From a virus (taxonomy: Duplodnaviria; Caudoviricetes), in the IMG/VR virus record IMGVR_UViG_3300043414_000203, positions 1 to 61,180 of that record: a DNA stretch of 61,180 bases. One strand, 5' to 3'. How positions within the stretch are numbered: position 1 is the stretch's first letter; the number at the start of each line of letters is the position of its first letter. This document shows positions 16,023-47,330 of this stretch, in pieces. The notes under the pieces were generated by a model. The model saw nothing but the letters and a program-made list of their open reading frames with translations. It ran no database searches and had not been told where the DNA came from. A program made the position numbers and the translations under genes.

Positions 16023-16029
16023 GGCATAC

Positions 16030-22852: not shown

Positions 22853-23012
22853 TCTTTTTCTTCCTCGCTTCTATATTGGCTAAACATTCTTTACAAACCC
22901 AGCGTGGGCTGCCCCTAGTTTGTTTCATGCCGCCGCCGTCCGGTGGTTTGAACGTGTTGCAGTGGGCACAATACTTACGGTCGTAGTTCATTCGTTTTCG
23001 CCACAGACTCAT
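22830..23012 (-). CDS. Small zinc-finger protein
   Basis: CAHC...RWVCKEC. Confidence 0.6.
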   Translation of the reverse strand: MSLWRKRMNYDRKYCAHCNTFKPPDGGGMKQTRGSPRWVCKECLANIEARKKKNVVSIVR

Positions 23013-24648: not shown

Positions 24649-25658
24649 AGCATGGCTCCAAAGAATTGATCTAACGGCACCTGTATCTTTTCTTGTACTG
24701 AAATAATATCTTTGTTTAATTCACCAGATTGAATATCTACATAGATCTTGTAGCTCTGTGGGCTAAACTGTTTAGGGTCGTACCCTATTACTGGCGCTCC
24801 CAAAGATGTGCCGAGAATAAGAAGCGTGTCTGCGTTCTGCATGGAAAAGTTTCCAGCGCGGCTGCCTCTAAGTCCAACAGCGCCCATGTTTAGCGGGTGA
24901 TCAAACGGCGCATAGTCCTGCGCTCCGTAGGTAGTAACAAACGGTAGTTGGTACTTCTCCACAAACCTTATAAATGCAAGATGACATCCAGCCTGACGAA
25001 GACCCACGCCAGCCAAGACTACCGGTCTTTCTGCAAGGTGCAGTTGTGACGTTAGTTTCAAATGATCAAAAGTTACCTTTGATGGTTTGCGTGATACGTA
25101 TTCTAAAGACGTATGCTCTGGCATCTGTGCTGCTTGTATGTTGCTAGGCACATCTATCCATACTGGCCCTGGTCTGCCGCGTGTGGCTTGATCTACAGCC
25201 ATGTGCATCATGTACTCAACATTTTCTGGTTGACTAATAAACCCAGCAACTTTGGTAATGGACTTAACTGTGTCTATGATGTGATGTTCTTGCGCCCCGT
25301 AATGCCTGACATCAACAGATTTATAAGTCTTCAACCAGTGAGCTGTGTTATCAGTGCGCACGTTGCCTGACAGGAATAGAACTGGCACACCATCTTGCCA
25401 AGCGTTCAGCACACTGGTTATGCAGTTAGTACCACCGCAGCCTGTAGTGGGGTTCACCACAGAGAACGTGCCTGTGTACTTGGCTTCGCCTATAGCAGCA
25501 TGTCCAGCGCCCTGCTCGTGGTGGTAGCAAATGTATTCAATGCCCTTGTGTTTGATAAAGCCATCATTCAAGCCCGCTGCGCCACCGCCCATCAGGCCAT
25601 GCACTCTGCTGACTCCTATCTCCCACAGGTAGTCTGCTATCCAATCAGCTACTCTCAT
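24645..25658 (-). CDS. ThDP-dependent enzyme, N-terminal and central domains
   Basis: MRVADWIA..HHEQGAGHAA..TTGCGGTN..GRPGPVWIDVP; ATG 25658 overlaps rfbH stop. Confidence 0.85.
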   Translation of the reverse strand: MRVADWIADYLWEIGVSRVHGLMGGGAAGLNDGFIKHKGIEYICYHHEQGAGHAAIGEAKYTGTFSVVNPTTGCGGTNCITSVLNAWQDGVPVLFLSGNVRTDNTAHWLKTYKSVDVRHYGAQEHHIIDTVKSITKVAGFISQPENVEYMMHMAVDQATRGRPGPVWIDVPSNIQAAQMPEHTSLEYVSRKPSKVTFDHLKLTSQLHLAERPVVLAGVGLRQAGCHLAFIRFVEKYQLPFVTTYGAQDYAPFDHPLNMGAVGLRGSRAGNFSMQNADTLLILGTSLGAPVIGYDPKQFSPQSYKIYVDIQSGELNKDIISVQEKIQVPLDQFFGAML

Positions 25659-26890
25659 CAATAGTCCCTTATAAATTTGTTGATGGTCTCTGCCACGTAG
25701 GTCAGCATCTCGCGGGTGAGAGCAGGTTGAACCCCGACCCAGAACGTGTTGTTCATAACCTCGTCTGTCTTCTCTAACTTGCCGTGGATGCGGTAGTTCT
25801 GACCTTTCATGAACGGCTGTTTGGTAGCGTTGCCAGCAAAGACTAGCCGCGTTCCAATCTTGTGTTCGTTTAGATACCAAGTCAGTTCATCCCGTTTGAA
25901 CTTAGCTTTAGGCGAGACAGTAATAGGAAGTCCAAACCATGAAGGCCACGCATCTGGATAAACTGTTGGAAATAACAATTGATAGTTGTGTGACAACGCA
26001 CCTTTTAAAAAGTTGTAGTTGTCTCTGCGCATCTGAACAAATCTTTCCAGTTGTTCTAGCTGTCCCCAACCACAGGCTGCCTGCATCTCTGTGATCTTCA
26101 TGTTGTAGCCAACGTGCGTGAAGACGTACTTGTGGTCGTACCCTTCTGGCAGGTCTTCAAACTTCTGGCAGAACCGCTGCTTGCAAGTGTTGTCCTTGCC
26201 AGGCTCGCACCAACAGTCACGACCCCAATCCCTGAAAGACTCAACAAGTCTGGTCAGCTTGGTGTTGTTAATGACCACCGCACCGCCTTCGCCCATTGTG
26301 ATGTGGTGAGCTGGAAAGAATGACAGCGTAGCCAAGTCACCGAACGTACCTACCTTCTTGTTTTTCCACTCCGCACCCAGCGCGTCGCAGCAGTCTTCTA
26401 TCAGCCACAGGTTGTACTTCTTAGCTAGAGCTACCACTTCTTCTACGTTGAAAGGATTGCCCAGTGTGTGAGCTAGGAAGATAGCTTTAGTCTTGCTGGT
26501 GATAGCGTTCTCTATTTCCTTAGTGCAGATGTTTAGCGTCCAATTCACATCTAGGAATACTGGCACCGCGCCGTACTGTAGGATCGGGTTGATCGTAGTA
26601 GGAAACCCGCAGGCAACAGAGATAACTTCATCACCCTTCTGGATAGCCCTGTCCCCCAACTTCGGGGAGGTCAGAGCTGAAAAGGCTATTAAGTTAGCAG
26701 AGCTGCCTGAGTTCACAGTACGCACGGCCTTGCACCCAAGATACTTGGTTAGACCATCCTCAAACCAGCGGTTATATTGACCGGCAGTAAGCCAGCCTTT
26801 ATCCACCGCGTCGTGCATGTAGTCTTTCTCTATATCCCCTATCACCTGCCCAGAGGCAGGGACGAAGGTTTCTCCTGGGACAAAACTCAT
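25658..26890 (-). CDS. rfbH: CDP-4-keto-6-deoxyglucose 3-dehydratase (E1, RfbH/DdhC)
   Basis: VNSGSSANL, EDCCDALG, SFFPAHHITMGEGG (His in place of the aminotransferase Lys), DWGRDCWC..NTC, GYDHKY. Confidence 0.9.
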   Translation of the reverse strand: MSFVPGETFVPASGQVIGDIEKDYMHDAVDKGWLTAGQYNRWFEDGLTKYLGCKAVRTVNSGSSANLIAFSALTSPKLGDRAIQKGDEVISVACGFPTTINPILQYGAVPVFLDVNWTLNICTKEIENAITSKTKAIFLAHTLGNPFNVEEVVALAKKYNLWLIEDCCDALGAEWKNKKVGTFGDLATLSFFPAHHITMGEGGAVVINNTKLTRLVESFRDWGRDCWCEPGKDNTCKQRFCQKFEDLPEGYDHKYVFTHVGYNMKITEMQAACGWGQLEQLERFVQMRRDNYNFLKGALSHNYQLLFPTVYPDAWPSWFGLPITVSPKAKFKRDELTWYLNEHKIGTRLVFAGNATKQPFMKGQNYRIHGKLEKTDEVMNNTFWVGVQPALTREMLTYVAETINKFIRDY

Positions 26891-27669
26891 ACAGGCGTTC
26901 CTTGTGGTGCTTGTTGTTGGAGATACTGTTCAGGTTGCGGAGTTAAGATGCCGTCGAACATGTGTGTGCCGATATGTGCAAGCTTCGCCCACGGCGCTGC
27001 CCACACAGTGCCGCCGCACTTCTCACGCCATTCCTTACAGAAGTGATAGTCCTCAGACAGCAGACGTTCACCCAGTGGCTCGATGCTAGTAGCAAAAAAC
27101 TCAGAGATACGTTCCTTACCAATGTTGCCACCCAGATCGTGCGTGTCGTTGATATAGCTAGGTACGTGATCCTTTAGCTGTTCAAACACTTCGCGCTTGA
27201 TTAACATGAATCCTGTACCGCCATTCCAGATTTCTACTGGCGAGTTCACATCGACTTGAACTTGTTCGGCGTAGTTCATAAGGTTCACCACAAATGAACC
27301 GGAGAAATGACGGAGCTGGTCTGCCGGTACACCTGCTTGTGCTGCCTTGTGAATCTGATTCCAGTTGATCTCTTTCTTGGGATAGATGCCGCAGATGATT
27401 GGCTTGTCTGCCAACATCATTGGAAGAACATCGGCTGGGTCAAAGCGAATGTCTGCATCTATAAACAATAGATGAGTGTGGTCTGTCTTCATAAAACCGT
27501 GCGCCAAGGCATTACGTGCGCGTTGGATCAGTGACTCGTTGAACAGGAAGCTGACAGCGGTGTCAATCTTGTTCTGCTGCAACTGTGTCTGCAGGGTCAT
27601 GATTGCTTGTGTGTAGTAGCCGTAGCATAGGCCGCCGTACATAGGTGTCGCAATAAACAATTTTGCCAT
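26887..27669 (-). CDS. Glycosyltransferase (GT-A fold, phage type)
   Basis: IATPMYGG, ESLIQRARN, FIDADI, GTGFMLIKR, LSEDYHFC. Confidence 0.8.
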   Translation of the reverse strand: MAKLFIATPMYGGLCYGYYTQAIMTLQTQLQQNKIDTAVSFLFNESLIQRARNALAHGFMKTDHTHLLFIDADIRFDPADVLPMMLADKPIICGIYPKKEINWNQIHKAAQAGVPADQLRHFSGSFVVNLMNYAEQVQVDVNSPVEIWNGGTGFMLIKREVFEQLKDHVPSYINDTHDLGGNIGKERISEFFATSIEPLGERLLSEDYHFCKEWREKCGGTVWAAPWAKLAHIGTHMFDGILTPQPEQYLQQQAPQGTPV

Positions 27670-27679
27670 TTTTATTTTC

Positions 27680-28396
27680 CTAGAAATTAAAGATATGTTT
27701 TTTTGTCCATGAGTAATCAGGACGGTTTAATAACATCCAGCCGTTGTTGTTAAGAAATTTCTCTGCCGTCATACCTCCCGTGCCATCCGCAGATAGTCTG
27801 TAATTGACAGAATGTTTGCCGGTACTTCCGCATCGAATCTTGGCCCGCATGAGTTCAGATTGAAAACTTCTATCCGAGACAATGGGGACGTACCAAGCAT
27901 GGCTATGTCGGCGCGCAACATCTGTTCTAACAACGTAACAGGAGTTGTCAACGAGGTACTGGTTAACTGAGTTGGGGATACATCCAATAGATTCGCAGTT
28001 GTCATCACAGATAAAATTTCCTTCATTGTTTACAATCTTTCTCAGGCTGTACGCCCATCCAAGGTCATGCTTCTCTATCATTTCAACGAGTGATTCGATA
28101 TGGTCTGGCTCGTACCAGTTGTCATCGTCGAGGTAACAGATGACGTCTTCTGTGATGGCAAATGGAGCAAGAGCAAAAACAGGAGCCATGCCATAACCCC
28201 CGCCACCATTAGCGCGAGGTAGGTGAACGGCGACCGTATCATTCGCCAAGTGAGGGATGGTTTTGTCGGAATACTCCGCACCGTGTATGAATACATAATG
28301 AGTAGCCTTCCTAGTTTGATCTTTAACACTTTGTATCGCCTTGGTTATGGTTGATCTACCCTGTGTGCTGGTCACCACCGCTACGGATAAGCTCAT
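27680..28396 (-). CDS. Glycosyltransferase family 2-like
   Basis: AIQSVKDQT, YLDDDNW DxD motif. Confidence 0.8.
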   Translation of the reverse strand: MSLSVAVVTSTQGRSTITKAIQSVKDQTRKATHYVFIHGAEYSDKTIPHLANDTVAVHLPRANGGGGYGMAPVFALAPFAITEDVICYLDDDNWYEPDHIESLVEMIEKHDLGWAYSLRKIVNNEGNFICDDNCESIGCIPNSVNQYLVDNSCYVVRTDVARRHSHAWYVPIVSDRSFQSELMRAKIRCGSTGKHSVNYRLSADGTGGMTAEKFLNNNGWMLLNRPDYSWTKKHIFNF

Positions 28397-28397
28397 G

Positions 28398-39103: not shown

Positions 39104-40579
39104 ATGGCATTAAATTTACGCTCTTATCAGGAGCAAACATTAGTAGCTTTGCGTGAAGGATTTGCAAAGGGTAGGAAGGCACAGATACTTTATGCCCCTA
39201 CAGGTGCAGGCAAAACTGAGATGGCTATCGCTCTGATGGCTGCGACACAAACCAAAGGCAACAAAGCGGCGATGTTATTAGACCGCGTGGTTCTTTGCGA
39301 CCAGACTAGTAAACGATTAGAGAAGTACGACATAGCGCATGGTGTTATGCAGGCAGGTCACTGGAGATACAGACCATACGAAAACATTCAAGTATGTTCA
39401 GCTCAAACGCTTGAGCGGCGCGGTTCATTTCCAGGATTGAATCTTCTGATCGTTGACGAGTGTCACCAAACCCGCGAGCAGACAGTCCAGTTCATTAAAG
39501 ACAATCCCAATGTGAGAGTAATAGGTCTGACTGCTACTCCGTTTACGAAGGGTTTGGGCAAGATATACGACAACGTAGTGTCTGTTGTTACCACTAAACA
39601 ACTGGTAGATGACAAGGTGTTGGTTCCTCTGCGCGTGTTCATAGCCAAAGAGATCAACATGGAAGGCGCTAAGAAGATTGGCGGCGAGTGGTCAACGGAA
39701 GAAACAACCAAGCGCGGCATGGTAATCACAGGCGATGTGGTAGCAGAGTGGGTAAAGAAAACCCACGAGATATTCGGGCGGCCTCGCAAGACGATTGTCT
39801 TTGCATCAGGCGTAGAGCATGGCGTTCACCTCGCCCGCAAGTTCCAAGAGCAGGGACATAACTTTATCTGCATATCGTACAAAGATGATGACGAATGGAA
39901 GAAGCAGGTTATCGAGGACTTTAGCAAGCCTGATACGCAGATCACTGGCTTGATTGCTACTGACATATTGACCAAAGGGTTCGATGTGTCGGACGTAATG
40001 ATCGGCGTATCTGCTAGACCGTTTAGTAAATCCTTGTCATCGCACATTCAGCAAATGGGCAGAGTTATGCGCGGGCATGATGATAAAGAATTTGCGGTGT
40101 GGCTAGACCATTCAGGTAACTATCTCAGGTTCAGGGAAGATTGGGATCAAGTCTTTGAGGAAGGCGTAGATACTCTGGACGAGGGCAAAGAGAAGGCCAA
40201 GAAGGAACCAACGGATAAGTTAAAGGAGCAGAGCAAGTGTCCTAAGTGTTCAGCTCTGTGGCCTACGGGGTCGGATACTTGCTACAACTGTGGTCATGTC
40301 AAAGAGAAGAAGAACAAGGTGTTCTCTCTTGACGGCGAGATGGTCGAGTTGACTGGAAACATTTCCAAAGACAGTAAGCAGGAGTTCTGGAGTCAGTTGG
40401 TCTGGTATATGCGCGTCCAGGGGTGGTCTAAAGGTAGGGCGGCTAACACATACAAGGATAAGTTCGGCGTCTGGCCTCGCGGGTTGCGGGATGATACTCC
40501 TGCCATGCCAAGTGATGATACGAGAAAGTTTATAGACAAGAAGTTAAAACAGTTCTTGCGTAGTGTGGGGAAAAGATAA
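39104..40579 (+). CDS. Superfamily II DNA helicase with C-terminal zinc ribbon
   Basis: APTGAGKT, DECH, GLTATP, QQMGRVMR, CPKC..CYNC. Confidence 0.9.
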   Translation: MALNLRSYQEQTLVALREGFAKGRKAQILYAPTGAGKTEMAIALMAATQTKGNKAAMLLDRVVLCDQTSKRLEKYDIAHGVMQAGHWRYRPYENIQVCSAQTLERRGSFPGLNLLIVDECHQTREQTVQFIKDNPNVRVIGLTATPFTKGLGKIYDNVVSVVTTKQLVDDKVLVPLRVFIAKEINMEGAKKIGGEWSTEETTKRGMVITGDVVAEWVKKTHEIFGRPRKTIVFASGVEHGVHLARKFQEQGHNFICISYKDDDEWKKQVIEDFSKPDTQITGLIATDILTKGFDVSDVMIGVSARPFSKSLSSHIQQMGRVMRGHDDKEFAVWLDHSGNYLRFREDWDQVFEEGVDTLDEGKEKAKKEPTDKLKEQSKCPKCSALWPTGSDTCYNCGHVKEKKNKVFSLDGEMVELTGNISKDSKQEFWSQLVWYMRVQGWSKGRAANTYKDKFGVWPRGLRDDTPAMPSDDTRKFIDKKLKQFLRSVGKR

Positions 40580-41424
40580 TGGACTTCATTCAATTCGCCC
40601 GCAGTCATGGCATCCTTATCGACAATCTGCCGCCGCTTGGCGTGTGGAAACGGTTTCCAACAGAAGATCATCCACGTTCTAAGAACGGCGCGGTGAAGTA
40701 TATGGGTGACGTTGGTTTCATTCAGAATCATGCGACAAGCACAGTCGTATCTATATGGAAGCCTGACTCTCGCAATGTAACTATAGATCGTTCGTCTGCT
40801 CTTATATCAATCAAGAAGGCAGAGGACGAGCAGAAGAAGAAGCAGCATACAGCCATGCAGCGCGCCGTCGGAATGCTTAACGGTAGCGGCATGAGTACGC
40901 ATCCGTACCTTGAAGCTAAAGGATTTAAGGACGAGCAGGGAAATGTACTGTGGCAGGACGGCAAGCCTGTTCTTCTGATCCCAATGAGGGTGGCAGGTAA
41001 CTTGGTCGGCTTGCAGCAGATCGACGAGGGCGGCGGCAAGAAGTTCTTGTACGGTCAGCGTACAACTGGCGCGGTGTTCACGTTTGATAACAAGGGTATG
41101 AATGTACTGTGCGAGGGCTACGCTACTGCTCTGTCTGTTCGTCTGGCCTTCAAACAAATGAAACAACGGTACACGCTGCACGTTTGCTTTAGCGCAGGGA
41201 ACATGGCGAAGGTGGCGGCAGGGCTTGAGGCTGGGCTTCTGATCGCAGATAACGACGCCTCTGGTACAGGGCAGCGCGTGGCAGAAGAAAGCGGCTGGAA
41301 GTATTGGCTGTCTGATCGTGTCGGCGAGGACGCTAACGACTTTCATCAACGGGTTGGACTGTTTCAGTTTACGCAAAGCCTGACCCGCTCAATGCAGAAT
41401 GTCGGTGCGGTTCGGCATACCTAA
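40579..41424 (+). CDS. TOPRIM-domain primase
   Basis: HPYL..KG, CEGYATA, IADND, DANDF. Confidence 0.85.
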   Translation: MDFIQFARSHGILIDNLPPLGVWKRFPTEDHPRSKNGAVKYMGDVGFIQNHATSTVVSIWKPDSRNVTIDRSSALISIKKAEDEQKKKQHTAMQRAVGMLNGSGMSTHPYLEAKGFKDEQGNVLWQDGKPVLLIPMRVAGNLVGLQQIDEGGGKKFLYGQRTTGAVFTFDNKGMNVLCEGYATALSVRLAFKQMKQRYTLHVCFSAGNMAKVAAGLEAGLLIADNDASGTGQRVAEESGWKYWLSDRVGEDANDFHQRVGLFQFTQSLTRSMQNVGAVRHT

Positions 41425-41592
41425 CATTAGTGCGCCGTTGGTAAGGGGGGCGATAGCACTAAGTGATTGCATGATCTCTATTCCTAGATTCAGGCATCTC
41501 TCGCCCTCTCCAGACCAGTCGGAAACAACCCGCACGTTCCCATCCTCATCTTCTAAAATGTGGATGGAAAACGTGGCGGGGTGGTTATTCAT
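41389..41592 (-). CDS. Hypothetical protein (end of mini-gene array)
   Basis: Coupled to upstream array gene. Confidence 0.55.
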   Translation of the reverse strand: MNNHPATFSIHILEDEDGNVRVVSDWSGEGERCLNLGIEIMQSLSAIAPLTNGALMLGMPNRTDILH

Positions 41593-41794
41593 GAGCAGAG
41601 TTTAACTCATGGTCGAAAGCATACGTTGACGCTACTGGTTCGGTATAAACCTTTTTTTCCATTTCTTTTTTATCGTAAACGTCTAACAGTATTCCCTCTC
41701 CTGTTGTAATAATTTGGATAGCAAACCCGCGAACATCAATCCAGATTGCGCCCTCGTCATCCATTTTGTAGTGCCCATCATGTAATGTTTTCAC
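41585..41794 (-). CDS. Array mini-gene (69 aa)
   Basis: Leader AGGAGATCAGACG-GTG. Confidence 0.75.
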   Translation of the reverse strand: MKTLHDGHYKMDDEGAIWIDVRGFAIQIITTGEGILLDVYDKKEMEKKVYTEPVASTYAFDHELNSAHE

Positions 41795-41805
41795 CGTCTG
41801 ATCTC

Positions 41806-41982
41806 CTATATAGATTTAAAGTAATGAATCCATGCGTTGATTGTTTCTGTATCGAACCAATCTTCCTTGCGTATCATTAACTGCAAAACCTGTCGCGCTT
41901 CGTCATTGGTCAGGCTGTTGTCAATCTCTTGAATGTCAGTAAAATGTAATCCGATGGTTATTTCATCTGGTAATTGTGTCAT
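41806..41982 (-). CDS. Array mini-gene (58 aa)
   Basis: Manual translation MTQLPDEITIG...HYFKSI*; stop overlaps next leader. Confidence 0.8.
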   Translation of the reverse strand: MTQLPDEITIGLHFTDIQEIDNSLTNDEARQVLQLMIRKEDWFDTETINAWIHYFKSI

Positions 41983-41993
41983 CGTCTGATCTC

Positions 41994-42167
41994 CTAGTTG
42001 TCAGTAACTTCAAGTTCTTCTTGTAACCAAGCCATAGCGGTGCATATATCGCTCCACTCGGCATCGTAGTCTGCATCTCCTTCAGGTATGCAGTTATCGC
42101 GGTATTTAAACAGCGCGTCCCAAATGGTTTCCATCCATGTATCTTTGTCATTCGCTCTAAGTATCAT
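41994..42167 (-). CDS. Array mini-gene (57 aa, acidic)
   Basis: Manual translation MILRANDKDTW...WSDICTAMAWLQEELEVTDN*. Confidence 0.8.
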   Translation of the reverse strand: MILRANDKDTWMETIWDALFKYRDNCIPEGDADYDAEWSDICTAMAWLQEELEVTDN

Positions 42168-42178
42168 CGTCTAATCTC

Positions 42179-42478
42179 CTATTCAGTTTCATCTATTTGC
42201 ATCTTTGATATTGCATCCGCGCAATTCTGCCCATCGCCGTCGGTTCCAATGTTCTCGCAAACTAAATAACATCTATCACGCTCAAACCGAATGGCATCGC
42301 GCCATACGTTGTAACAATCCGTCAGCGTTGTGTAGTATTCGCCATACTTACCTGCGTAAAATGAATCATCATCGCCAGTTTCCATAAAAGCGGTTGTTGC
42401 GTCGGTAGGTATTCCGTTGTTGTCCATCGCGGCTATGAAAGCCTGTTGGAAGCTGCTTTGTAGTGTTGTGTCGTTCAT
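42179..42478 (-). CDS. Array mini-gene (99 aa)
   Basis: Leader AGGAGATCAGAAGATG. Confidence 0.8.
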   Translation of the reverse strand: MNDTTLQSSFQQAFIAAMDNNGIPTDATTAFMETGDDDSFYAGKYGEYYTTLTDCYNVWRDAIRFERDRCYLVCENIGTDGDGQNCADAISKMQIDETE

Positions 42479-42489
42479 CTTCTGATCTC

Positions 42490-42666
42490 CTATTCATTCC
42501 AAAAATTAAATAGTGCCGAACATTCAGAGCACACTTCCACCGAGTAATCATCGCGTGACTCCAGTAAGTCGGTGCGTGCGCCGTCGAACGGACAGGCGTT
42601 GTAATGATCTTCTGAAACTAGCAAATCAATTGGCTGTTTAAATTTCTGCCGATCTAGCTTATTCAT
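42490..42666 (-). CDS. Array mini-gene (58 aa, zinc-ribbon-like)
   Basis: Manual translation with CPFD...CSEC. Confidence 0.75.
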   Translation of the reverse strand: MNKLDRQKFKQPIDLLVSEDHYNACPFDGARTDLLESRDDYSVEVCSECSALFNFWNE

Positions 42667-42680
42667 AATTGTCTGATCTC

Positions 42681-42815
42681 CTATTCAAACCAATCAATAA
42701 TTACCCGCTTAACACTAGACTCACTTATCCCTAGTATCTCGCTCACCTTGTGCGTGTTTTGCTTAACGCGATATAACTCGCATATTTTTAGTATTAAGGC
42801 TGCATCTGTAATCAT
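42681..42815 (-). CDS. Array mini-gene (44 aa, HTH-like)
   Basis: THKVSEILGISESSVKRVI helix-turn-helix pattern. Confidence 0.75.
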   Translation of the reverse strand: MITDAALILKICELYRVKQNTHKVSEILGISESSVKRVIIDWFE

Positions 42816-42827
42816 CGTCTAATCTCC

Positions 42828-43262
42828 TTACCAACTAGCGCAATATTCAAATTCCCAAGTGTCGTCTAACTCTGCGAGCAGGGTTTCGATCTCGGCGGCG
42901 GTGCGTCTGATGTCATGCCAATAGTCATCATTGACTTCTGCGCTACCAAAAAAGAATCCTTCCTGCGGCGGTAGTACGGTGCTGTCCTTCTGATCTAATG
43001 CTTTTCTACAATCTGCTAACAACATTTCCAATTGCTCTTTACTCACATAATGCGGCTTACATTCATCCAAACCATCTTGCACATTGTCCACAAACCAACT
43101 ATGAATCTGGTTTGCTTTACGCCAGTACATTGCTTCGATTGAAACTTCTTTAACTCTGCGCTGTACGTTTATTTTTTCCTGAATTTCTTTTGCAACTTGT
43201 GTGTCTCCATCGTTAAAACTCCACAAGTATTTTTTAGCGGATAAGTACATATCTAAACCCAT
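42828..43262 (-). CDS. Conserved phage protein (MGLDMY..YWRKANQIH family)
   Basis: Widespread motif incl. GFFFGS and YxASW end. Confidence 0.85.
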   Translation of the reverse strand: MGLDMYLSAKKYLWSFNDGDTQVAKEIQEKINVQRRVKEVSIEAMYWRKANQIHSWFVDNVQDGLDECKPHYVSKEQLEMLLADCRKALDQKDSTVLPPQEGFFFGSAEVNDDYWHDIRRTAAEIETLLAELDDTWEFEYCASW

Positions 43263-43273
43263 GATTTAATCTC

Positions 43274-43513
43274 CTATCGAAATTGGCTGCAATGAATTGC
43301 TTTATCTAAAATAACGTCACCATCGGCGGTAAATGCTTCCAAATAAACGTGGTCATTTTCTAACCTAAGTCGAACATAACCACCAAAATGGTCGTGGTCT
43401 TTTGCATCATCAAATGAAAGCAATACGCATTGACTCTCGCCGTTGTCGTGCGTATCTAGTACAGGCGTTAATCCTGCTTGTTCTGCAAATACTTCTATTG
43501 GTTCGTAAATCAT
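43274..43513 (-). CDS. Array mini-gene (79 aa)
   Basis: Exact leader fixes start at 43513 (MIYEPIEV). Confidence 0.8.
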   Translation of the reverse strand: MIYEPIEVFAEQAGLTPVLDTHDNGESQCVLLSFDDAKDHDHFGGYVRLRLENDHVYLEAFTADGDVILDKAIHCSQFR

Positions 43514-43524
43514 CGTCTGATCTC

Positions 43525-43710
43525 CTAGAATGTTGGTGTATGAATTACTTGCTGCATTTCGCTGTTTACTGGTTTTTCGCACAGCATTACCGTTACTTCG
43601 TAACTTTTTTTAGCTTTAAATATTTTTGCTGCTGCTTCCTGTGCATCAAATGAACGTAATGCGTACACTTCGCAGGTTTTACCTTTATAAAAACATTTGT
43701 ATCCAAACAT
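43525..43710 (-). CDS. Array mini-gene (61 aa)
   Basis: Variant leader AGGAGATGAGTGATG. Confidence 0.8.
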   Translation of the reverse strand: MFGYKCFYKGKTCEVYALRSFDAQEAAAKIFKAKKSYEVTVMLCEKPVNSEMQQVIHTPTF

Positions 43711-43907
43711 CACTCATCTCCTATTATTAAATCAGGCATATATTTCGACACTTCATTTAATAAATCTGCGTCACCTAACTTTTCTAATTTTTCCCATAGC
43801 ACCTCTGCGGCATATTGCTGCAATGTTTTCGTGTCCATACCATCGACTAAATTGTCAACATACGTTTCAATAATTTCTAATCTCGTCATTATTTGTTTTG
43901 TTTTCAT
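43710..43907 (-). CDS. Array mini-gene (65 aa)
   Basis: Leader AGGAGATCAGACTATG. Confidence 0.8.
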   Translation of the reverse strand: MKTKQIMTRLEIIETYVDNLVDGMDTKTLQQYAAEVLWEKLEKLGDADLLNEVSKYMPDLIIGDE

Positions 43908-43918
43908 AGTCTGATCTC

Positions 43919-44101
43919 CTATATGCCAGCTAAGTGTTTTGCTTTAACGACTGCGTGAGCAAGCGTTTGAAAGCGCATTAACAGGCATACACGTTCGTCT
44001 GCGTCTGTATCAAACAGCGCGACGTTAAAACCTTTGTCCGTCTGATAAATGCGTGATTCGATGCCGTATTCTGCGTTTGGGTAGGTTGCTATTTGTTTCA
44101 T
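43919..44101 (-). CDS. Array mini-gene (60 aa)
   Basis: Leader AGGAAATCAGACGATG. Confidence 0.8.
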   Translation of the reverse strand: MKQIATYPNAEYGIESRIYQTDKGFNVALFDTDADERVCLLMRFQTLAHAVVKAKHLAGI

Positions 44102-44113
44102 CGTCTGATTTCC

Positions 44114-44281
44114 TTATTGTTGGCACTCGGCACATACGCCGCTCATCTCAGGGTTTTCGCGTACCCATCGCAGGGCGGCTGACTTGGTATCAAATCTCTG
44201 CCAGTTGAAATAACCGCCTTGTCCATCTGCGACCATCTCAAAGCATTTAATCCATCCGTACTCGTTAAAGATAAGTTTCAT
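44114..44281 (-). CDS. Array mini-gene (55 aa)
   Basis: Manual translation MKLIFNEYGW...CAECQQ*. Confidence 0.75.
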   Translation of the reverse strand: MKLIFNEYGWIKCFEMVADGQGGYFNWQRFDTKSAALRWVRENPEMSGVCAECQQ

Positions 44282-44293
44282 CGTCTGATCTTC

Positions 44294-44461
44294 TTATAAG
44301 TCGGTGTCATCTTCGGCTAGTTCTGGTTCACTAGCGATTAACGATACTAGGTCATTGTCTAAGCTGAAGTGGTATTGGACTTCACCTGCTAAATGCTCGG
44401 CGGCTTCTTCTGGTGTATTGCCGCGAACAAAAACGGTACAGTCAAATCGGTATAAGTTCAT
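44294..44461 (-). CDS. Array mini-gene (55 aa, acidic)
   Basis: Manual translation MNLYRFDCTVFVRGNTPEEAA... Confidence 0.8.
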   Translation of the reverse strand: MNLYRFDCTVFVRGNTPEEAAEHLAGEVQYHFSLDNDLVSLIASEPELAEDDTDL

Positions 44462-44475
44462 CGTCTGATCTCCTA

Positions 44476-44604
44476 TTAATATGAATCAAATAAATCTGAC
44501 AAAATTTCGTACAGCACGTTTGCCTGTAATCCTGTGATTACAAGTAAATCTGCCCATGTAAGTTTTCCTTCAATAAAGTTTTCGCGTATCTGTTCGTTGG
44601 TCAT
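44476..44604 (-). CDS. Array mini-gene (42 aa)
   Basis: Manual translation MTNEQIRENF..LTWADLLVITGL; exact leader. Confidence 0.75.
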   Translation of the reverse strand: MTNEQIRENFIEGKLTWADLLVITGLQANVLYEILSDLFDSY

Positions 44605-44630
44605 CGTCTGATCTCCTGTTGTAATAGGTT

Positions 44631-44658
44631 ACATTAAAACTGTCTATTGCATTGTCAA
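44631..44658 (-). promoter_or_regulatory. Internal array promoter
   Basis: TTGACA-N16-TAATGT; a second TTGACA 22 bp upstream (ATTGTCAAGC direct repeat). Confidence 0.6.
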
Positions 44659-44685
44659 GCCTGACTCAGTTAATTGTCAAGCGTT

Positions 44686-44838
44686 TTATACCGTCTGATT
44701 TCCTAATCGTTTTAGCGCGGCGTAGTGCAGCAAAACATGGGTGCGCGTCATGTATTTACTCGGGTTTTCTGCGCTGCGTCTGATCTCGTCTGGAGTAAAC
44801 AAGCGCAAAACAGCGTCTAAGTATTGGCGGCGTTGCAT
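44686..44838 (-). CDS. Array mini-gene (50 aa, basic)
   Basis: Manual translation MQRRQYLDAVLRLF...; leader AGGAGATTAGACCATG. Confidence 0.7.
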   Translation of the reverse strand: MQRRQYLDAVLRLFTPDEIRRSAENPSKYMTRTHVLLHYAALKRLGNQTV

Positions 44839-44852
44839 GGTCTAATCTCCTG

Positions 44853-45140
44853 TTAAAACAGCGTTATGGTGGTGTCAACCTGCGGGTTAGCGGATTGAAT
44901 TGTCAGCGTGAAATAGTCGGCGGCGGTGCTATCCTGCGGCGGTTTTGTTATCGGCTCGAATTGTCCGGCTTCGCCGTTCCAGAAAAAATCAGGGTCGGCG
45001 GTGACTTTCAATTGCTTCGCGGCGGCGAGGGCATCGGCGGCGGTTTCCTTATCGGTGCAAATTGTTTGCTCTTGGCATATCACTCGCCACAATCCGCGAC
45101 TGGTGGAAAGATAACAGCGCGGGGTCTTAATTGGTTGCAT
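44853..45140 (-). CDS. Array mini-gene (95 aa)
   Basis: Leader AGGAATTAGACCATG. Confidence 0.75.
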   Translation of the reverse strand: MQPIKTPRCYLSTSRGLWRVICQEQTICTDKETAADALAAAKQLKVTADPDFFWNGEAGQFEPITKPPQDSTAADYFTLTIQSANPQVDTTITLF

Positions 45141-45411
45141 GGTCTAATTCCTTGTTAGTAAAGTACAGTCTGCAGGTATAGCAGTCCGCATGTAATCCGC
45201 TAACTTCATCAACTGCGAATTGTGTTTCCTGTCTGCCATAATGTGCGTCCGTAAAATCAAGCGTGGCATCTGGCAGCTTCCAGTAGTCGCGCATAAATGC
45301 GTTTAGGTCGGCGGCTTCGCGGTCATCCAGTCCAGAATAGTCGGCGTTGAAAAGCGCGGGTAAGTAGTGCGCGGCAAGTGTCAGTTCGTAATAGTCATTA
45401 AGTAGTGGCAT
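45127..45411 (-). CDS. Array mini-gene (94 aa; YLPALFNADYSGL family)
   Basis: Leader GGAGCTTAGACCATG. Confidence 0.8.
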   Translation of the reverse strand: MPLLNDYYELTLAAHYLPALFNADYSGLDDREAADLNAFMRDYWKLPDATLDFTDAHYGRQETQFAVDEVSGLHADCYTCRLYFTNKELDHATN

Positions 45412-45414
45412 GGT

Positions 45415-45615
45415 CTAAGCTCCGGCTAGGTGCGCGAAAGTGCGCGGGGTTGATTGCTCGATCTCGATTGAATAACCGAGAGCGCGGATAGTGTCTAGCG
45501 CGTGGCGCGTCAGCGTCTTAGTTCCTGCCAACTTCGCAAGTAGGCGGCTAGAATCGCATGATGGGTAAGCGGTTTCTATTCCGTAATTTTTCTCGATTTT
45601 AATTGTGATTATCAT
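45415..45615 (-). CDS. Array mini-gene (66 aa)
   Basis: NYG..YP..LAGTKTLT..LGY, recurring phage family. Confidence 0.75.
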   Translation of the reverse strand: MIITIKIEKNYGIETAYPSCDSSRLLAKLAGTKTLTRHALDTIRALGYSIEIEQSTPRTFAHLAGA

Positions 45616-45619
45616 TTTA

Positions 45620-45916
45620 TTAACCCTTTAAAATCAGTTTACGAAGTGTCTGCATTTCATCTGTCCAAGACTGCCCACAGATGTAATAGGGTGCGCGGTC
45701 GTTATCGTCGGCAATAATCAAGCGGGAGAAAATGCCATAAGAGGGAAACAAGGCGAGCGGCATACGCAAGCGGCGGGAAAGCCTGTCTTTTGTATCTGCG
45801 CGGCAGCCTTTACCAATAATTGACAGAATCTCGGCTTGCTGATGGTCGGTCAGCGCGGGTTGACTATCGGGCGAGAATTTTGCGTCATGTATTGCGCGGT
45901 CTAATGAATATTGCAT
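45620..45916 (-). CDS. Array mini-gene (98 aa)
   Basis: Leader AGGAGATCACCATG. Confidence 0.75.
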   Translation of the reverse strand: MQYSLDRAIHDAKFSPDSQPALTDHQQAEILSIIGKGCRADTKDRLSRRLRMPLALFPSYGIFSRLIIADDNDRAPYYICGQSWTDEMQTLRKLILKG

Positions 45917-45929
45917 GGTGATCTCCTGA

Positions 45930-46004
45930 TTAAATTGATAAAAGCAAAAACAAAAACAGCCAGAAAATAAAGAATCCGGCTATACCTGTCAGAATTTCAT
46001 TCAT
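45930..46004 (-). CDS. First array gene: 24-aa membrane peptide
   Basis: MNEILTGIAGFFIFWLFLFLLLSI*; RBS AGGAG. Confidence 0.6.
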   Translation of the reverse strand: MNEILTGIAGFFIFWLFLFLLLSI

Positions 46005-46051
46005 TGTTCACTCTCCTAAGTAGTGCGCTCAGGGTTAAGCGCATGCATAGG

Positions 46052-46079
46052 ATATTAGCGGATTGATGCAATATGTCAA
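46052..46079 (-). promoter_or_regulatory. Promoter at head of mini-gene array
   Basis: TTGACA-N16-TAATAT, then hairpin TGCGCT..AGCGCA. Confidence 0.65.
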
Positions 46080-46206
46080 GAGGGTTTATATATTGTATGT
46101 TCTAATCAATAGTTATGTTTTAATAGGTTTTGACTATTCTGGGATTGTTCCTGTATATTGTCGGCATTATTTGGGCGCGAACGAGCGCGAGCGAGAACAG
46201 TTCAAT

Positions 46207-47031
46207 ATGAAAACCATCACAAGGAAACAAGCCAGGGAAGCTATACAGTCTAAAGGCATCGGTTCTGCTATAGGCGTGGGCAAGTTACAAGGCGTAACTG
46301 CAAAGCAGCGCAAGTTTGCTGAAAGCATTGTTATGGACGGCTTGAACGCTTCCGATGCGTATAGAGCGGCTTACGATACCAGCGCAAAGTCCAACACAAT
46401 AAATGTCAATGCTAGCAAACTACTGCATAGCACTAAGGTATCAAATACCATCGACGCACTAGAACGGGCGAAAGAGGCGAGCGCATCGCATTCTGCTGAA
46501 AGCTTGAGGGCTTTATGCGTTTCAACATTGGTTGACGTTGCCTGCAATAGCGACCGAGACGCTGTGCGCGTTGCTGCGGTTCGCGTGTTAGGTAGCGTTG
46601 TCGGTGTAGATGCGTATCGTGAGACTAAGCGCATAGAGACGGTAAAGGATAGCGACGACATCAAAGCCCAGATCATGCTGCAGCTTAAAACTATGATGCT
46701 AGGCAATGCGGATGCCGAGACGGTCGACGCTTCCGACCTGCTAGCCGAATTGACAATTCAGGAAGATGACGACCCCACCGTACCCCCACCATGCCATTCT
46801 GACAATGGGACTCCGACTATCATTGAACATACTATTCCACTCGAACAGTCAGAAGAATTTTTGGATTCAGAAGATTTTTTGAATGAGCTAGAGCAGCCTA
46901 TCCTCTCCAGCGAACCCACCCCCATGTCTTTAGAATCATCACCCACCCCGGGGGATATATTTTTAGAAGATGAGGATAGTTATCAAGATGTTACTGTAAG
47001 TTCTTACAGTAAGCAAATGACAACAAAATGA
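46207..47031 (+). CDS. terS: Terminase small subunit
   Basis: TAKQRKFA..SDAYRAAY..NASKLL motif; upstream of terL; acidic tail. Confidence 0.75.
   Translation: MKTITRKQAREAIQSKGIGSAIGVGKLQGVTAKQRKFAESIVMDGLNASDAYRAAYDTSAKSNTINVNASKLLHSTKVSNTIDALERAKEASASHSAESLRALCVSTLVDVACNSDRDAVRVAAVRVLGSVVGVDAYRETKRIETVKDSDDIKAQIMLQLKTMMLGNADAETVDASDLLAELTIQEDDDPTVPPPCHSDNGTPTIIEHTIPLEQSEEFLDSEDFLNELEQPILSSEPTPMSLESSPTPGDIFLEDEDSYQDVTVSSYSKQMTTK
46991..47012. promoter_or_regulatory. SOS-box-like palindromic operator, copy B
   Basis: TTACTGTAAG-TT-CTTACAGTAA containing CTGT-N8-ACAG, just upstream of LexA-like gene. Confidence 0.7.
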
Positions 47032-47330
47032 CGGTTCTTTTAATAAATAGGGATATGACGGCAAAGAGGAAAGATTTGTCGTTTGAAGAATGTGTGGAGA
47101 AGGATATGACGCCAGCTCAGAGGGAAGTGTTTTTGTGTATAGATGAGTGGTGGAAGAAGTATGGGTTTGGGCCGTCTATACGGGATATATGTAATGTTAG
47201 AGGTAAAGCTGGTATGGGGAATACGTCGGAGATTATTAGCCGGCTTGTGAAGATAGGCGTTCTGAAGAAGGTAAAGGGAGCTGGTCGTAGCGTTCGCCCG
47301 GTTTACATAAACTTTCGCACGTTGGAGTGA
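47028..47330 (+). CDS. LexA DNA-binding-domain-like repressor (no peptidase domain)
   Basis: MTPAQREVF..I..WW.KYGFGPSIRDI..L..IGVLKK..GRSVR. Confidence 0.75.
   Translation: MTVLLINRDMTAKRKDLSFEECVEKDMTPAQREVFLCIDEWWKKYGFGPSIRDICNVRGKAGMGNTSEIISRLVKIGVLKKVKGAGRSVRPVYINFRTLE

What the first reader, a model, noticed from the sequence alone, without database searches (positions are those of the whole stretch)
41585..46079. Cassette-like array of ~20 mini-genes built on a standard 16-nt junction
Seen: unrelated 24-144-aa ORFs, nine missed by the ORF track, nearly all starting with AGGAGATCAGACGATG or a close variant. In 11 cases the upstream stop codon overlaps the junction (TAG-GAG / TAA-GGAG type), so each unit is exactly leader plus ORF. 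Many units are 180-197 bp. Inference: an integron-like but integrase-free cassette system. The junction would act as microhomology for gain, loss and shuffling (the phage encodes ERF and an exonuclease), as a coupling signal and as a shared regulatory target. The cargo is a likely pool of host-takeover or anti-defence proteins.
Basis: partly seen in the sequence, partly recalled or inferred. Interest (0 to 1): 0.88.

Follow-up and report, generated by a model that had tools for sequence, protein, structure and literature searches.

The report
Phage mini-gene array with standard junction
An uncultured freshwater phage carries a row of 21 tiny genes, most of them joined by the same 16-letter ribosome-binding junction, and related phages have gained, lost and reordered whole genes exactly at that junction.

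Summary
On the minus strand, 46004 to 41389, a complete 61,180-bp phage genome carries 21 head-to-tail mini-genes of 24-144 aa. Twelve or thirteen start with AGGAGATCAGACGATG or a near variant (15 matches against 0.37 expected by chance). No other gene of the phage uses this spacer.

The junction is shared by a clade of uncultured phages. There are 253 distinct junctions in front of 80 unrelated gene families. Arrays hold 4-21 genes in many different orders.

Between close relatives, 23 of 34 in-array whole-gene indels have the motif at both ends and at the empty site. In the window, 81 of 116 homology-block ends lie within 5 nt of a motif. The mini-genes are under purifying selection.

My reading is a hyperplastic accessory operon. 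Its standardised stop-SD-spacer-start junction acts as a translation start site and as a short homology patch for cassette shuffling.

It is not an integron: there is no integrase and no attC. It combines two known kinds. These are PeSL-type modular shuffling in T4-like phages and the start-associated sequences of Cluster K mycobacteriophages.

The recombination mechanism, any regulatory role and the cargo functions remain untested.

The parts
46052..46079 (-). Promoter-like site at the head of the array (TTGACA-16-TAATAT, 10 of 12)
   Evidence: This is a consensus scan only, and the number of sites in the region is no higher than in shuffles.
45930..46004 (-). Gene 1, a 24-aa hydrophobic peptide. 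Conserved upstream anchor (family 4, in 36 loci). Its start region is AGGAGAGTGAACAATG.
   Evidence: dN/dS 0.26.
45620..45916 (-). Gene 2, 98 aa, with no standard junction
   Evidence: dN/dS 0.16; no Pfam or PHROG match.
45415..45615 (-). Gene 3, 66 aa. The most conserved anchor (family 1, in 54 loci). No standard junction.
   Evidence: AF2 model with pLDDT 86. No PDB fold match at E <= 0.001. The Atlas returns viral hypothetical proteins only.
45127..45411 (-). Gene 4, 94 aa, an anchor (family 3, in 40 loci). Variant junction GGAGCTTAGACCATG.
   Evidence: weak DUF6926 match (E 0.049, below the cut-off).
44853..45140 (-). Gene 5, 95 aa. Variant junction GGAATTAGACCATG. Overlaps gene 4 by 14 nt.
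   Evidence: dN/dS 0.20.
44686..44838 (-). Gene 6, 50 aa. Junction AGGAGATTAGACCATG (2 mismatches). Its last codons read through a degenerate junction copy at 44689-44704.
   Evidence: reading of the sequence.
44605..44685 (-). The only real gap in the array (81 nt). It has two TTGACA boxes, with a promoter-like site at 44651-44680. It splits the array into an upstream and a downstream sub-array.
   Evidence: The TTGACAATGCAATAG box recurs in relative L017.
44476..44617 (-). Cassette: exact junction (44602-44617) plus a 42-aa ORF
   Evidence: dN/dS 0.08.
44294..44474 (-). Cassette: exact junction (44459-44474) plus a 55-aa ORF
   Evidence: Together with the previous cassette it is absent from L035 and skipped by a contig of run X3 (joint 44277>44601 with 14 shared letters).
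44114..44294 (-). Cassette: junction AGAAGATCAGACGATG plus a 55-aa ORF
   Evidence: dN/dS 0.04.
43919..44114 (-). Cassette: junction AGGAAATCAGACGATG plus a 60-aa ORF (family 9, in 25 loci, with 13 different upstream neighbours)
43710..43920 (-). Cassette: junction AGGAGATCAGACTATG plus a 65-aa ORF
43525..43713 (-). ORF of 61-62 aa without the standard junction. Its start (GTGATG) overlaps the upstream stop and is preceded by AGGAG.
   Evidence: dN/dS 0.06.
43274..43526 (-). Cassette: exact junction (43511-43526) plus a 79-aa ORF
42828..43275 (-). Cassette: variant junction AGGAGATTAAATCATG (4 mismatches) plus a 144-aa ORF
   Evidence: phrog_7971, function unknown, E 7e-11.
42681..42828 (-). 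Cassette: junction AGGAGATTAGACGATG plus a 44-aa ORF with a weak helix-turn-helix signal
   Evidence: HTH_23 at E 0.0026, below the cut-off.
42490..42682 (-). Cassette: junction AGGAGATCAGACAATT with the ATG 3 nt further on, plus a 58-aa ORF found in no other locus
42179..42491 (-). Cassette: junction AGGAGATCAGAAGATG plus a 99-aa ORF
   Evidence: The three cassettes 42181-42811 are absent from L035 and skipped by a contig of run X3 (joint 42167>42812).
41994..42180 (-). Cassette: junction AGGAGATTAGACGATG plus a 57-aa ORF (family 90). Homologues in motif-less sister phages carry other start regions.
41806..41995 (-). Cassette: exact junction (41980-41995) plus a 58-aa ORF
   Evidence: dN/dS 0.11.
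41585..41807 (-). Last cassette: junction with a GTG start (AGGAGATCAGACGGTG) plus a 69-aa ORF. Its stop overlaps the start of the next gene (ATGAATAA).
   Evidence: Skipped by contigs of run X3 (joints 41592>41791 and 41593>41786).
41389..41592 (-). Downstream anchor, 67 aa (family 2, in 48 loci). No standard junction. It lies tail to tail with the Toprim primase gene.
   Evidence: primase identified.

Best explanation
The region is the hyperplastic accessory-gene operon of a lytic-type, integrase-free phage of about 61 kb. It is probably two transcription units, starting near 46079 and near 44680.

In the downstream unit almost every mini-gene is a cassette of one standard form. The upstream stop codon overlaps or abuts AGGAG. 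A fixed 8-nt spacer, ATCAGACG, follows. Then comes the ATG and a short ORF, most often about 60 codons.

I think the junction does two things.
1. It is a standard, strong ribosome-binding start placed 11-14 nt after the previous stop. Any ORF placed behind it is translated, probably coupled to its upstream neighbour.
2. It is repeated identically every 150-300 nt and shared by a whole clade, so it is a short patch of homology. Annealing-type recombination or template switching at this patch, during replication or co-infection, deletes, inserts and reorders whole cassettes without damaging stop, SD, spacing or start.

Cassettes that keep the consensus junction stay exchangeable. That would explain why a non-coding spacer remains nearly invariant in front of unrelated genes.

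Shown: the motif, its restriction to this operon, purifying selection on the mini-genes, cassette flux among relatives, and breakpoints at the motif.

Inferred: the translation role, the recombination mechanism and its enzyme, and the early or host-directed function of the cargo.
For: 1. Motif statistics. There are 15 matches against 0.37 expected, all on one strand and in one operon. None of 50 other gene starts in the genome shows the spacer.

2. Clade-wide use. An exact-match scan of viral contigs gave 116 stretches, and 73 of them have two or more copies at up to 2 mismatches, always on one strand. There are 253 unique junctions (up to 3 mismatches) in front of 80 gene families. Most of positions -13 to +2 carry 1.8-2.0 bits (lowest 0.8-1.3 at -4 and -1), against at most 0.7 bits just upstream.

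3. Flux. The 39 arrays that hold both anchors contain 4-21 genes over 795-4616 nt, with families in many orders. The 201 unique motif junctions give 169 different neighbour pairs.

4. Linkage. Families with the motif keep the same upstream neighbour with median probability 0.08 (n=23). Families without it do so with 0.30 (n=23; Mann-Whitney p=3e-4). No motif-type neighbour pair recurs in 5 or more non-identical loci, against 18 pairs with 5 or more mismatches to the motif (20 pairs listed in all, 2 of them intermediate).

5. Indels between flanks at least 88% identical. Of 47 dereplicated events, 34 lie in arrays. Of those, 23 have the motif (up to 2 mismatches) at the left end, the right end and the empty site, and 5 more have it at two of the three. 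The shared overlap is 13-36 nt. Only 38% (213 of 554) of in-array gene junctions carry the motif, so both ends would be motif-bearing in about 15% of events by chance (nominal p=4e-12). Example: L017 against L015, with flanks 99.2% and 96.2% identical, differ by one 197-nt cassette with a 16-nt overlap.

6. In the window, 81 of 116 homology-block ends lie within 5 nt of a motif, against 9.8% of positions. Relative to L035 the window has two clean insertions, 44295-44604 and 42181-42811.

7. Contigs from other metagenome runs join across whole cassettes, and their loose ends pile up at junctions.

8. At 32 orthologous junction pairs the spacer is 95.7% identical, against 75.9% for third codon positions next to it.

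9. The junction belongs to the lineage, not to the gene. Eleven of 69 motif families have homologues in motif-less sister phages with other start regions. One sub-lineage uses GAGATCACACAATG instead. The motif is present in relatives whose primase is 67-95% identical to the window's (apart from the 76-79% subgroup below) and absent from those at 50-56%.

10. The mini-genes are real: median dN/dS is 0.04-0.26 for 18 of 21.

11. ERF and a PD-(D/E)XK nuclease are encoded. An Erf/Exo pair from phage D3 recombined diverged substrates as well as lambda Red did (PMC3945230, passages read).
Against: - The motif is nearly the whole space between genes. Any gene-precise event will therefore map to it, and selection for intact genes could give the same picture.
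- All 13 indels outside the arrays lack the motif and have overlaps of only -30 to 14 nt; those printed lie at gene ends. Motif-less relatives also have arrays of small genes at the same place. The motif is thus not required for plasticity.
- ERF is present in 5 of 5 complete relatives, including the 2 without the motif.
- Sixteen nucleotides is short for annealing recombinases. From my own recall, lambda Red efficiency falls steeply below about 30 nt.
- Minor variants inside the motif could not be assigned to the upstream or the downstream gene, so crossovers were not mapped within it.
- No deletion or circle was seen within a population. Only contigs were available, and the source sample shows a single form.
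- The events counted are not phylogenetically independent. Gene calls and families come from my own crude scripts. Metagenome contigs could in principle be chimeric at repeats.
Confidence: 0.58

Rival explanations
1. The motif is first of all a cis-regulatory element. It would resemble the start-associated sequences of Cluster K mycobacteriophages, or the stoperators of Cluster A at the DNA level. A phage or host factor (translational repressor or activator, RNase, or DNA-binding repressor) would recognise the SD plus spacer and switch the whole sub-operon together. On this view the spacer is conserved by purifying selection, and cassette shuffling is a side effect of having identical repeats. 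This rival can be true together with the best explanation.
For: - The spacer is 95.7% conserved even at junctions whose neighbours have not changed.
- The motif is confined to one transcription unit downstream of the internal promoter-like gap, and the upstream unit uses a different variant.
- There are precedents. SAS is a 13-bp motif containing AGGAG, 3-7 bp before start codons, in 11-19 copies, in one orientation, in non-structural genes, with function unknown (PMC3203893, passages read). Stoperators are repressor sites distributed across the phage genome that terminate transcription elongation (PMC9283540, abstract seen).
- A LexA-type HTH protein (47028-47330) and a weak HTH cassette are encoded.
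Against: - No candidate factor was identified. RegA and RegB families were not found, but those searches had no positive control.
- There is no trans copy of the motif or of its complement elsewhere in the genome at up to 3 mismatches.
- There is no Rfam match.
- Predicted pairing of the motif is the same as that of its flanks (0.48 unpaired; Wilcoxon p=0.70).
- One subgroup of sister phages, with primase 76-79% identical, does without the standard motif; some of its members carry a diverged variant.
Confidence: 0.25
2. Nothing special: these are ordinary strong ribosome-binding sites. The similarity would come from common descent of tandemly duplicated units, or from chance convergence. The mosaic pattern would come from illegitimate recombination followed by selection for intact genes.
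For: - AGGAG with an 8-nt spacing is a standard good SD.
- Indels without any motif also occur outside the array (13 events; those printed lie at gene ends).
- Motif-less relatives have variable arrays too.
Against: - The 8-nt spacer has no known pairing role, yet most of its positions carry 1.5-2.0 bits (lowest 0.8-1.3 at -4 and -1) in front of 80 families that share no protein similarity.
- The other 50 gene starts in the same genome vary freely.
- Motif junctions are enriched as indel ends relative to all gene junctions, 23 of 34 against about 15% expected.
- The same gene family carries the motif in this lineage and other start regions in sister lineages.
Confidence: 0.07
3. Assembly artefact: the short repeats cause metagenome assemblers to join cassettes from co-occurring strains, which inflates the apparent shuffling.
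For: - All relatives are metagenome contigs.
- Some overlaps reach 25-36 nt.
Against: - Most overlaps are 13-22 nt. From my own knowledge this is below common assembly k-mers and far below read length, and the cassettes of about 190 nt are spanned by read pairs.
- The window's array is reproduced without a single difference in contigs of two runs, though these are from the same sample.
- Several loci are 99.5-100% identical over 7-10 kb between different contig records.
- The motif itself is in the sequence whatever the assembly did.
Confidence: 0.05

Closest known systems
PeSL cassettes (promoter-early stem-loops) of T4-like phages. Arbiol et al. 2010, PMC2839356: abstract and sections 13 and 21 read. 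Comeau et al. 2014, PMC4122927: abstract read.
   Same: - A conserved regulatory junction repeated upstream of ORFan genes in hyperplastic regions.
- Indels and replacements between close relatives end at the junction.
- The authors read it as a Botstein-type linker for homologous recombination without a dedicated integrase, and they also compare it with integrons.
   Different: - A PeSL is a composite of a sigma-70-like promoter, a stem-loop terminator and an SD, so each cassette is its own transcription unit.
- Here the junction is only 16 nt (stop, SD, spacer, ATG) with no promoter or terminator. One search finds no terminator-like site on the minus strand. The cassettes sit in one polycistronic unit.
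- PeSL mini-circles were shown experimentally. Nothing of that kind could be tested here.
Start-associated sequences (SAS) of Cluster K mycobacteriophages. Pope et al. 2011, PMC3203893: passages read. PMC12699233: passages read.
   Same: - A short asymmetric motif that contains AGGAG and sits just before start codons.
- Some 10-20 copies per genome, in one orientation, only in non-structural genes.
- It precedes genes of different families, and the upstream stop codon sometimes lies inside it.
- Conservation goes beyond what 16S rRNA pairing explains.
- It is lost or reduced in some sub-lineages.
   Different: - The sequence is different (GGGATAGGAGCCC).
- SAS lies a variable 3-7 bp from the start, whereas here a fixed spacer is conserved right up to the ATG.
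- SAS sites are scattered among genes and half of them have extended inverted repeats. Here they tile a contiguous array.
- The passages I read propose no role in gene shuffling.
- The hosts are Actinobacteria, whereas the host here is unknown.
Integron cassette arrays
   Same: - A head-to-tail array of promoterless short ORFs behind a common promoter-like region, with conserved anchor genes at the ends.
- Cassette content and order differ between relatives.
   Different: - There is no intI or any tyrosine or serine recombinase.
- There are no attC hairpin sites, because only 11-14 nt lie between stop and start.
- The repeat is a translation signal.
- The element is a lytic-type phage genome, and no such array was found in representative genomes of 185,579 bacterial and archaeal species.
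Stoperators of Cluster A mycobacteriophages (PMC9283540: abstract seen)
   Same: Many copies of a short asymmetric site distributed across the phage genome.
   Different: - Stoperators are DNA sites bound by the immunity repressor of temperate phages and are not start-associated.
- Here the motif includes the SD and the start codon, and no repressor link is known.

Membership tests
Integron | intI tyrosine recombinase next to the array | tested here: not met
   PF00589 gave no match in the complete genome, while 14 of 14 control genomes rang. PF00239 also gave none.
Integron | attC recombination site (imperfect inverted repeats, tens of nt) at the end of each cassette | tested here: not met
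   Only 11-14 nt lie between the stop and the next start. The junction is no more paired than its flanks.
Integron | Promoterless cassettes expressed from a common upstream promoter | tested here: inconclusive
   Promoter-like sites lie at 46079-46052 and 44680-44651, at the heads of the two sub-arrays. The count of such sites is no higher than in shuffles, and there are no expression data.
PeSL cassette system (T4-like phages) | Junction contains a sigma-70-type promoter | tested here: not met
   The junction is 16 nt of SD, spacer and ATG. None of the 12 standard junctions holds a promoter-like site.
PeSL cassette system (T4-like phages) | Junction contains a stem-loop terminator | tested here: not met
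   There is no terminator-like site on the minus strand and no extra pairing at the junction.
PeSL cassette system (T4-like phages) | Indel and replacement end points between close relatives lie at the repeated junction | tested here: met
   23 of 34 in-array indels have the motif at both ends and at the empty site. 81 of 116 homology-block ends lie within 5 nt of a motif.
PeSL cassette system (T4-like phages) | Circular cassette intermediates | not testable with these tools
   Only assembled contigs of the runs were available.
Start-associated sequences (Cluster K mycobacteriophages) | Short asymmetric motif containing AGGAG, a few nt before start codons, in one orientation, in 10-20 copies, in non-structural genes | tested here: met
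   All 15 matches are on one strand and 13 are at gene starts in the accessory operon.
Start-associated sequences (Cluster K mycobacteriophages) | Consensus GGGATAGGAGCCC, in Cluster K actinophages | tested here: not met
   The consensus here is AGGAGATCAGACGATG. The nearest named relatives are aquatic phages at up to 57% TerL identity. This is an analogue, not a member.
Stoperator-type repressor sites | Bound by the phage immunity repressor, blocking transcription elongation | not testable with these tools
   There are no binding data. The genome has no integrase but does have a LexA-type HTH protein.

The most novel reading that the evidence does not exclude
The 16-nt junction is an evolved, self-maintaining docking sequence. 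It would be a minimal, recombinase-free counterpart of an integron attachment site that is also the ribosome-binding site. A whole clade of freshwater phages would use it as a common plug-and-play standard to trade mini-genes of about 60 codons during co-infection. Cassettes that drift from the consensus would lose mobility. The conserved anchor genes of unknown fold at the array ends (66, 94 and 67 aa) could be part of the machinery or its control.
Probability: 0.3. Interest if true: 0.85.

Novelty: new variant of a known kind. Interest (0 to 1): 0.62.

Why it matters
Botstein's idea that phage modules are exchanged through short conserved linkers has few clean natural examples.

Here the linker is reduced to its minimum: a 16-nt stop-SD-spacer-start junction. 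It is seen at more than 250 junctions in front of 80 gene families, with dozens of gene-precise gains, losses and permutations between close relatives.

That makes several questions directly testable:
- How short a homology suffices for cassette exchange in phages?
- Is a translation signal conserved for recombination or for regulation?
- How do ORFan pools turn over?

It also gives a defined catalogue of small phage proteins under purifying selection to screen for host-directed or anti-defence activities. It may shed light on the unexplained start-associated sequences of mycobacteriophages as well.

Tried and rejected
Named relatives by DNA. The array has no match in the phage collection with megablast or blastn. 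TerL reaches only 57% identity, to named aquatic phages. Their corresponding regions lack the motif.

Function of the cargo and anchors.
- PHROGs and Pfam on all 21 proteins gave only 2 families each. Re-scanning 10 of the 21 individually placed phrog_7971 on the 144-aa protein and HTH_23 on the 44-aa protein. DUF7326 and phrog_1352 belong to one of the 11 proteins not re-scanned.
- The protein Atlas returned only viral hypothetical clusters for two anchors.
- The AF2 model of the 66-aa anchor (pLDDT 86) has no PDB match at E <= 0.001.

Regulatory readings.
- No Rfam family matched. The single hit is a microRNA model at E 0.8.
- The motif shows no special predicted accessibility or structure.
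- GATC inside the motif is not unusual. The genome has 212 GATC against 234 expected, and the array has 17 against 16 expected. I dropped a Dam or restriction reading.
- RegA, RegB and T7-type RNA polymerase families were not found, but their controls rang nowhere, so this is no evidence of absence.

Mapping crossovers inside the motif from linked minor variants was inconclusive, with too few informative sites.

An identity-correlation test across junctions could not be run for motif junctions, because no such neighbour pair recurs in 5 or more non-identical loci.

Host or prophage search. Two exact motifs 164-194 nt apart occur in none of the representative bacterial and archaeal genomes.

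Expression. No RNA holder was listed among the sequencing runs. The runs laid were contigs only, so rare deletions or circles could not be seen.

Literature. The motif and its reverse complement as text gave only two unrelated animal papers. Word searches for linker, SD, gene-boundary and microhomology shuffling returned only the PeSL paper and unrelated work. Supplementary files of papers were not opened, and those of the PeSL and SAS papers may hold further junction details.

Full report
**What the window is.** The window is a complete virus record of 61,180 bp with direct terminal repeats. Its large terminase is at most 57% identical to named phages: phage 023Pt_psg01, DSL-LC04 and Pelagibacter phages HTVC027P and HTVC023P. 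The array has no DNA match in the phage collection. It lies between the Toprim primase gene (40579-41424, + strand) and the small terminase gene (46063-47031, + strand) and is read from the minus strand. Elsewhere the genome encodes an ERF-family annealing protein (31464-32150) and a PD-(D/E)XK nuclease (32458-33330). It has no tyrosine or serine recombinase, and the control genomes rang for both families.

**The observation.**
- AGGAGATCAGACGATG with up to 3 mismatches occurs 15 times, always on the minus strand and only in 41792-44851. The chance expectation is 0.37.
- The minus-strand ORF chain has 21 genes of 24-144 aa from 46004 to 41389. Nine are shorter than 60 aa.
- The upstream stop codon overlaps the junction at 11 of 20 junctions.
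- The first six genes (46004-44686) do not use the standard motif. Three of them carry the variant GGAG-TTAGACCATG.
- An 81-nt gap (44605-44685) with two TTGACA boxes follows. After it come 15 genes, of which 12-13 carry the standard junction.
- The last gene (41592-41389) has no motif, and its start overlaps the previous stop (ATGAATAA).
- None of 50 other gene starts in the genome shows the spacer.

**The mini-genes are real genes.** Families built from relatives give median dN/dS of 0.04-0.26 for 18 of the 21. The other three have too few relatives to test. They are unrelated to one another, with a mean column identity of 11% and a separate family each. Almost none has a known family.

**The junction is shared by a clade.**
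- An exact-match scan of viral contigs returned 116 stretches. Of these, 73 hold two or more copies at up to 2 mismatches, always on one strand.
- With my own gene calls and BLASTP families, there are 253 unique junction sequences in front of 80 families. Most of positions -13 to +2 carry 1.8-2.0 bits (lowest 0.8-1.3 at -4 and -1). Positions just upstream carry at most 0.7 bits.
- Cassette lengths peak at 180-210 nt (88 of 172 unique cassettes), with a second peak near 300 nt.
- Relatives fetched through the primase carry the motif when the primase is 67-95% identical. The exception is one subgroup at 76-79%. Those at 50-56% lack it.
- The motif-less phages have small-gene arrays at the same place with ordinary or different start regions.
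- Eleven of 69 motif families have homologues in those phages behind other start regions. One sub-lineage uses GAGATCACACAATG.

The junction is therefore a property of the lineage, not of the genes.

**Flux.**
- Thirty-nine arrays hold both the upstream and the downstream anchor genes. They contain 4 to 21 genes, and the same families appear in many orders. The window's array is the longest.
- Families with the motif keep the same upstream neighbour far less often than families without it. The medians are 0.08 and 0.30, with n=23 each and p=3e-4.
- Some motif-less junctions mark pairs that always travel together, such as families 38-39, 78-79 and 53-34.
- No motif-type neighbour pair recurs in 5 or more non-identical loci.

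**Breakpoints.**
- Between loci whose flanks are at least 88% identical I found 47 dereplicated pure indels, and 34 of them lie inside arrays.
- Twenty-three of those have the motif at both ends of the insert and at the empty site, with the two flank alignments overlapping by 13-36 nt. Five more have it at two of the three places, and six have it at fewer.
- Only 213 of 554 unique in-array gene junctions carry the motif. Random choice among gene junctions would therefore give about 15% (nominal p=4e-12). The events are not independent.
- The 13 indels outside arrays have overlaps of -30 to 14 nt and no motif.
- In the window, 81 of 116 ends of homology blocks to relatives lie within 5 nt of a motif, against 9.8% of positions.
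- Relative to L035 the window has clean insertions of two cassettes (44295-44604) and three cassettes (42181-42811). L082 has two of the window's cassettes in the opposite order.
- Contigs of other metagenome runs join across the same cassettes: 41592>41791, 42167>42812, and 44277>44601 with 14 shared letters. Their loose ends sit at junctions.
- The source sample shows one form only, but contigs cannot show rare variants.

**Constraint on the spacer.** At 32 orthologous junction pairs the spacer is 95.7% identical. Neighbouring third codon positions are 75.9% identical. This shows constraint or homogenisation but cannot tell them apart.

**What was not found.**
- No Rfam family.
- No special RNA pairing at the junction.
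- No trans copy of the motif.
- No GATC anomaly.
- No recognisable RegA, RegB or phage RNA polymerase, though these three searches lacked positive controls.
- No fold match for the most conserved anchor protein.
- No arrays in representative bacterial and archaeal genomes.
- ERF is present in 5 of 5 complete relatives, including the two without the motif, so it is not specific to the junction.

**Interpretation.** The best-supported reading is a hyperplastic accessory operon. Its junction is both a standard translation start, placed 11-14 nt after the previous stop, and a short homology patch at which whole cassettes are deleted, inserted and reordered.

The comparative pattern supports the second role strongly but not decisively. 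The motif fills the intergenic space, and intact genes are selected for. The enrichment of motif junctions over other gene junctions and the tighter linkage across motif-less junctions argue that the motif adds something. A regulatory role of the SAS or stoperator type is compatible and cannot be excluded.

**Comparison with what is known.**
- PeSL cassettes of T4-like phages work in the same way at the level of genome evolution. They are promoter-terminator composites, however (PMC2839356, sections 13 and 21; PMC4122927, abstract).
- The start-associated sequences of Cluster K mycobacteriophages resemble the motif itself, but they have another sequence and no reported role in shuffling (PMC3203893 and PMC12699233, passages).
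- Integron membership fails on both defining features.
- The motif as text is not in the searched literature.

I rate this a new variant of a known kind. It is of clear interest to phage genome evolution, and its mechanism and function remain open.

Noticed in passing
window 23012-29345 (- strand): A run of sugar-modifying genes in this phage. It includes an NAD-dependent epimerase and a thiamine-pyrophosphate enzyme split over two ORFs (24645-25880 and 23917-24648). It also includes a DegT-type aminotransferase and three glycosyltransferase-like proteins (GT2, GT10/fucosyltransferase-like, and a weak Anp1 match).
   Followed up: partly
window 16012-22197 (+ strand): A 2061-aa ORF with LPD38 and ddrB-ParB domains, that is, a 'large polyvalent protein' of the kind found in phages and conjugative elements.
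   Followed up: partly
window 44689-44704 (- strand): A degenerate junction copy (AGGAAATCAGACGGTA, without an ATG) is read through as the last codons of the 50-aa gene, just before the internal promoter-like gap. It looks like a fossil junction.
   Followed up: partly
L112, L122, L042, L043, L070, L119 (upstream of the family-2 anchor): In several relatives the last junction (with a GTG start) opens a 7-codon mini-ORF. Its stop overlaps the ATG of the conserved last gene. In the window the 69-aa last cassette starts with the same GTG junction and ends with the same ...AHE* overlap.
   Followed up: partly
relatives' cassettes: Cassette length has a sharp peak at 180-210 nt (88 of 172) and a second peak near 300 nt. 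I have no explanation for this preferred size.
   Followed up: no
L126 (phage DSL-LC04) 4634, 5223, 6128: Three small genes between the terminase genes of this distant relative share their own start region, ACATACAGGAGAAA or ACATACTGGAGAAA. This may be an independent case of junction standardisation.
   Followed up: no
window about 40566-40581 against L082 and L015: Relatives carry an extra 240-254-nt segment at the helicase/primase gene border. It is flanked by a 14-nt repeat that is the reverse complement of an SD-plus-start region. This is a gene-precise insertion outside the array, at another kind of start junction.
   Followed up: partly
window 47028-47330 (+ strand): A 100-aa protein with a LexA-type DNA-binding domain sits directly after the small terminase gene, in a genome with no integrase.
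   Followed up: no
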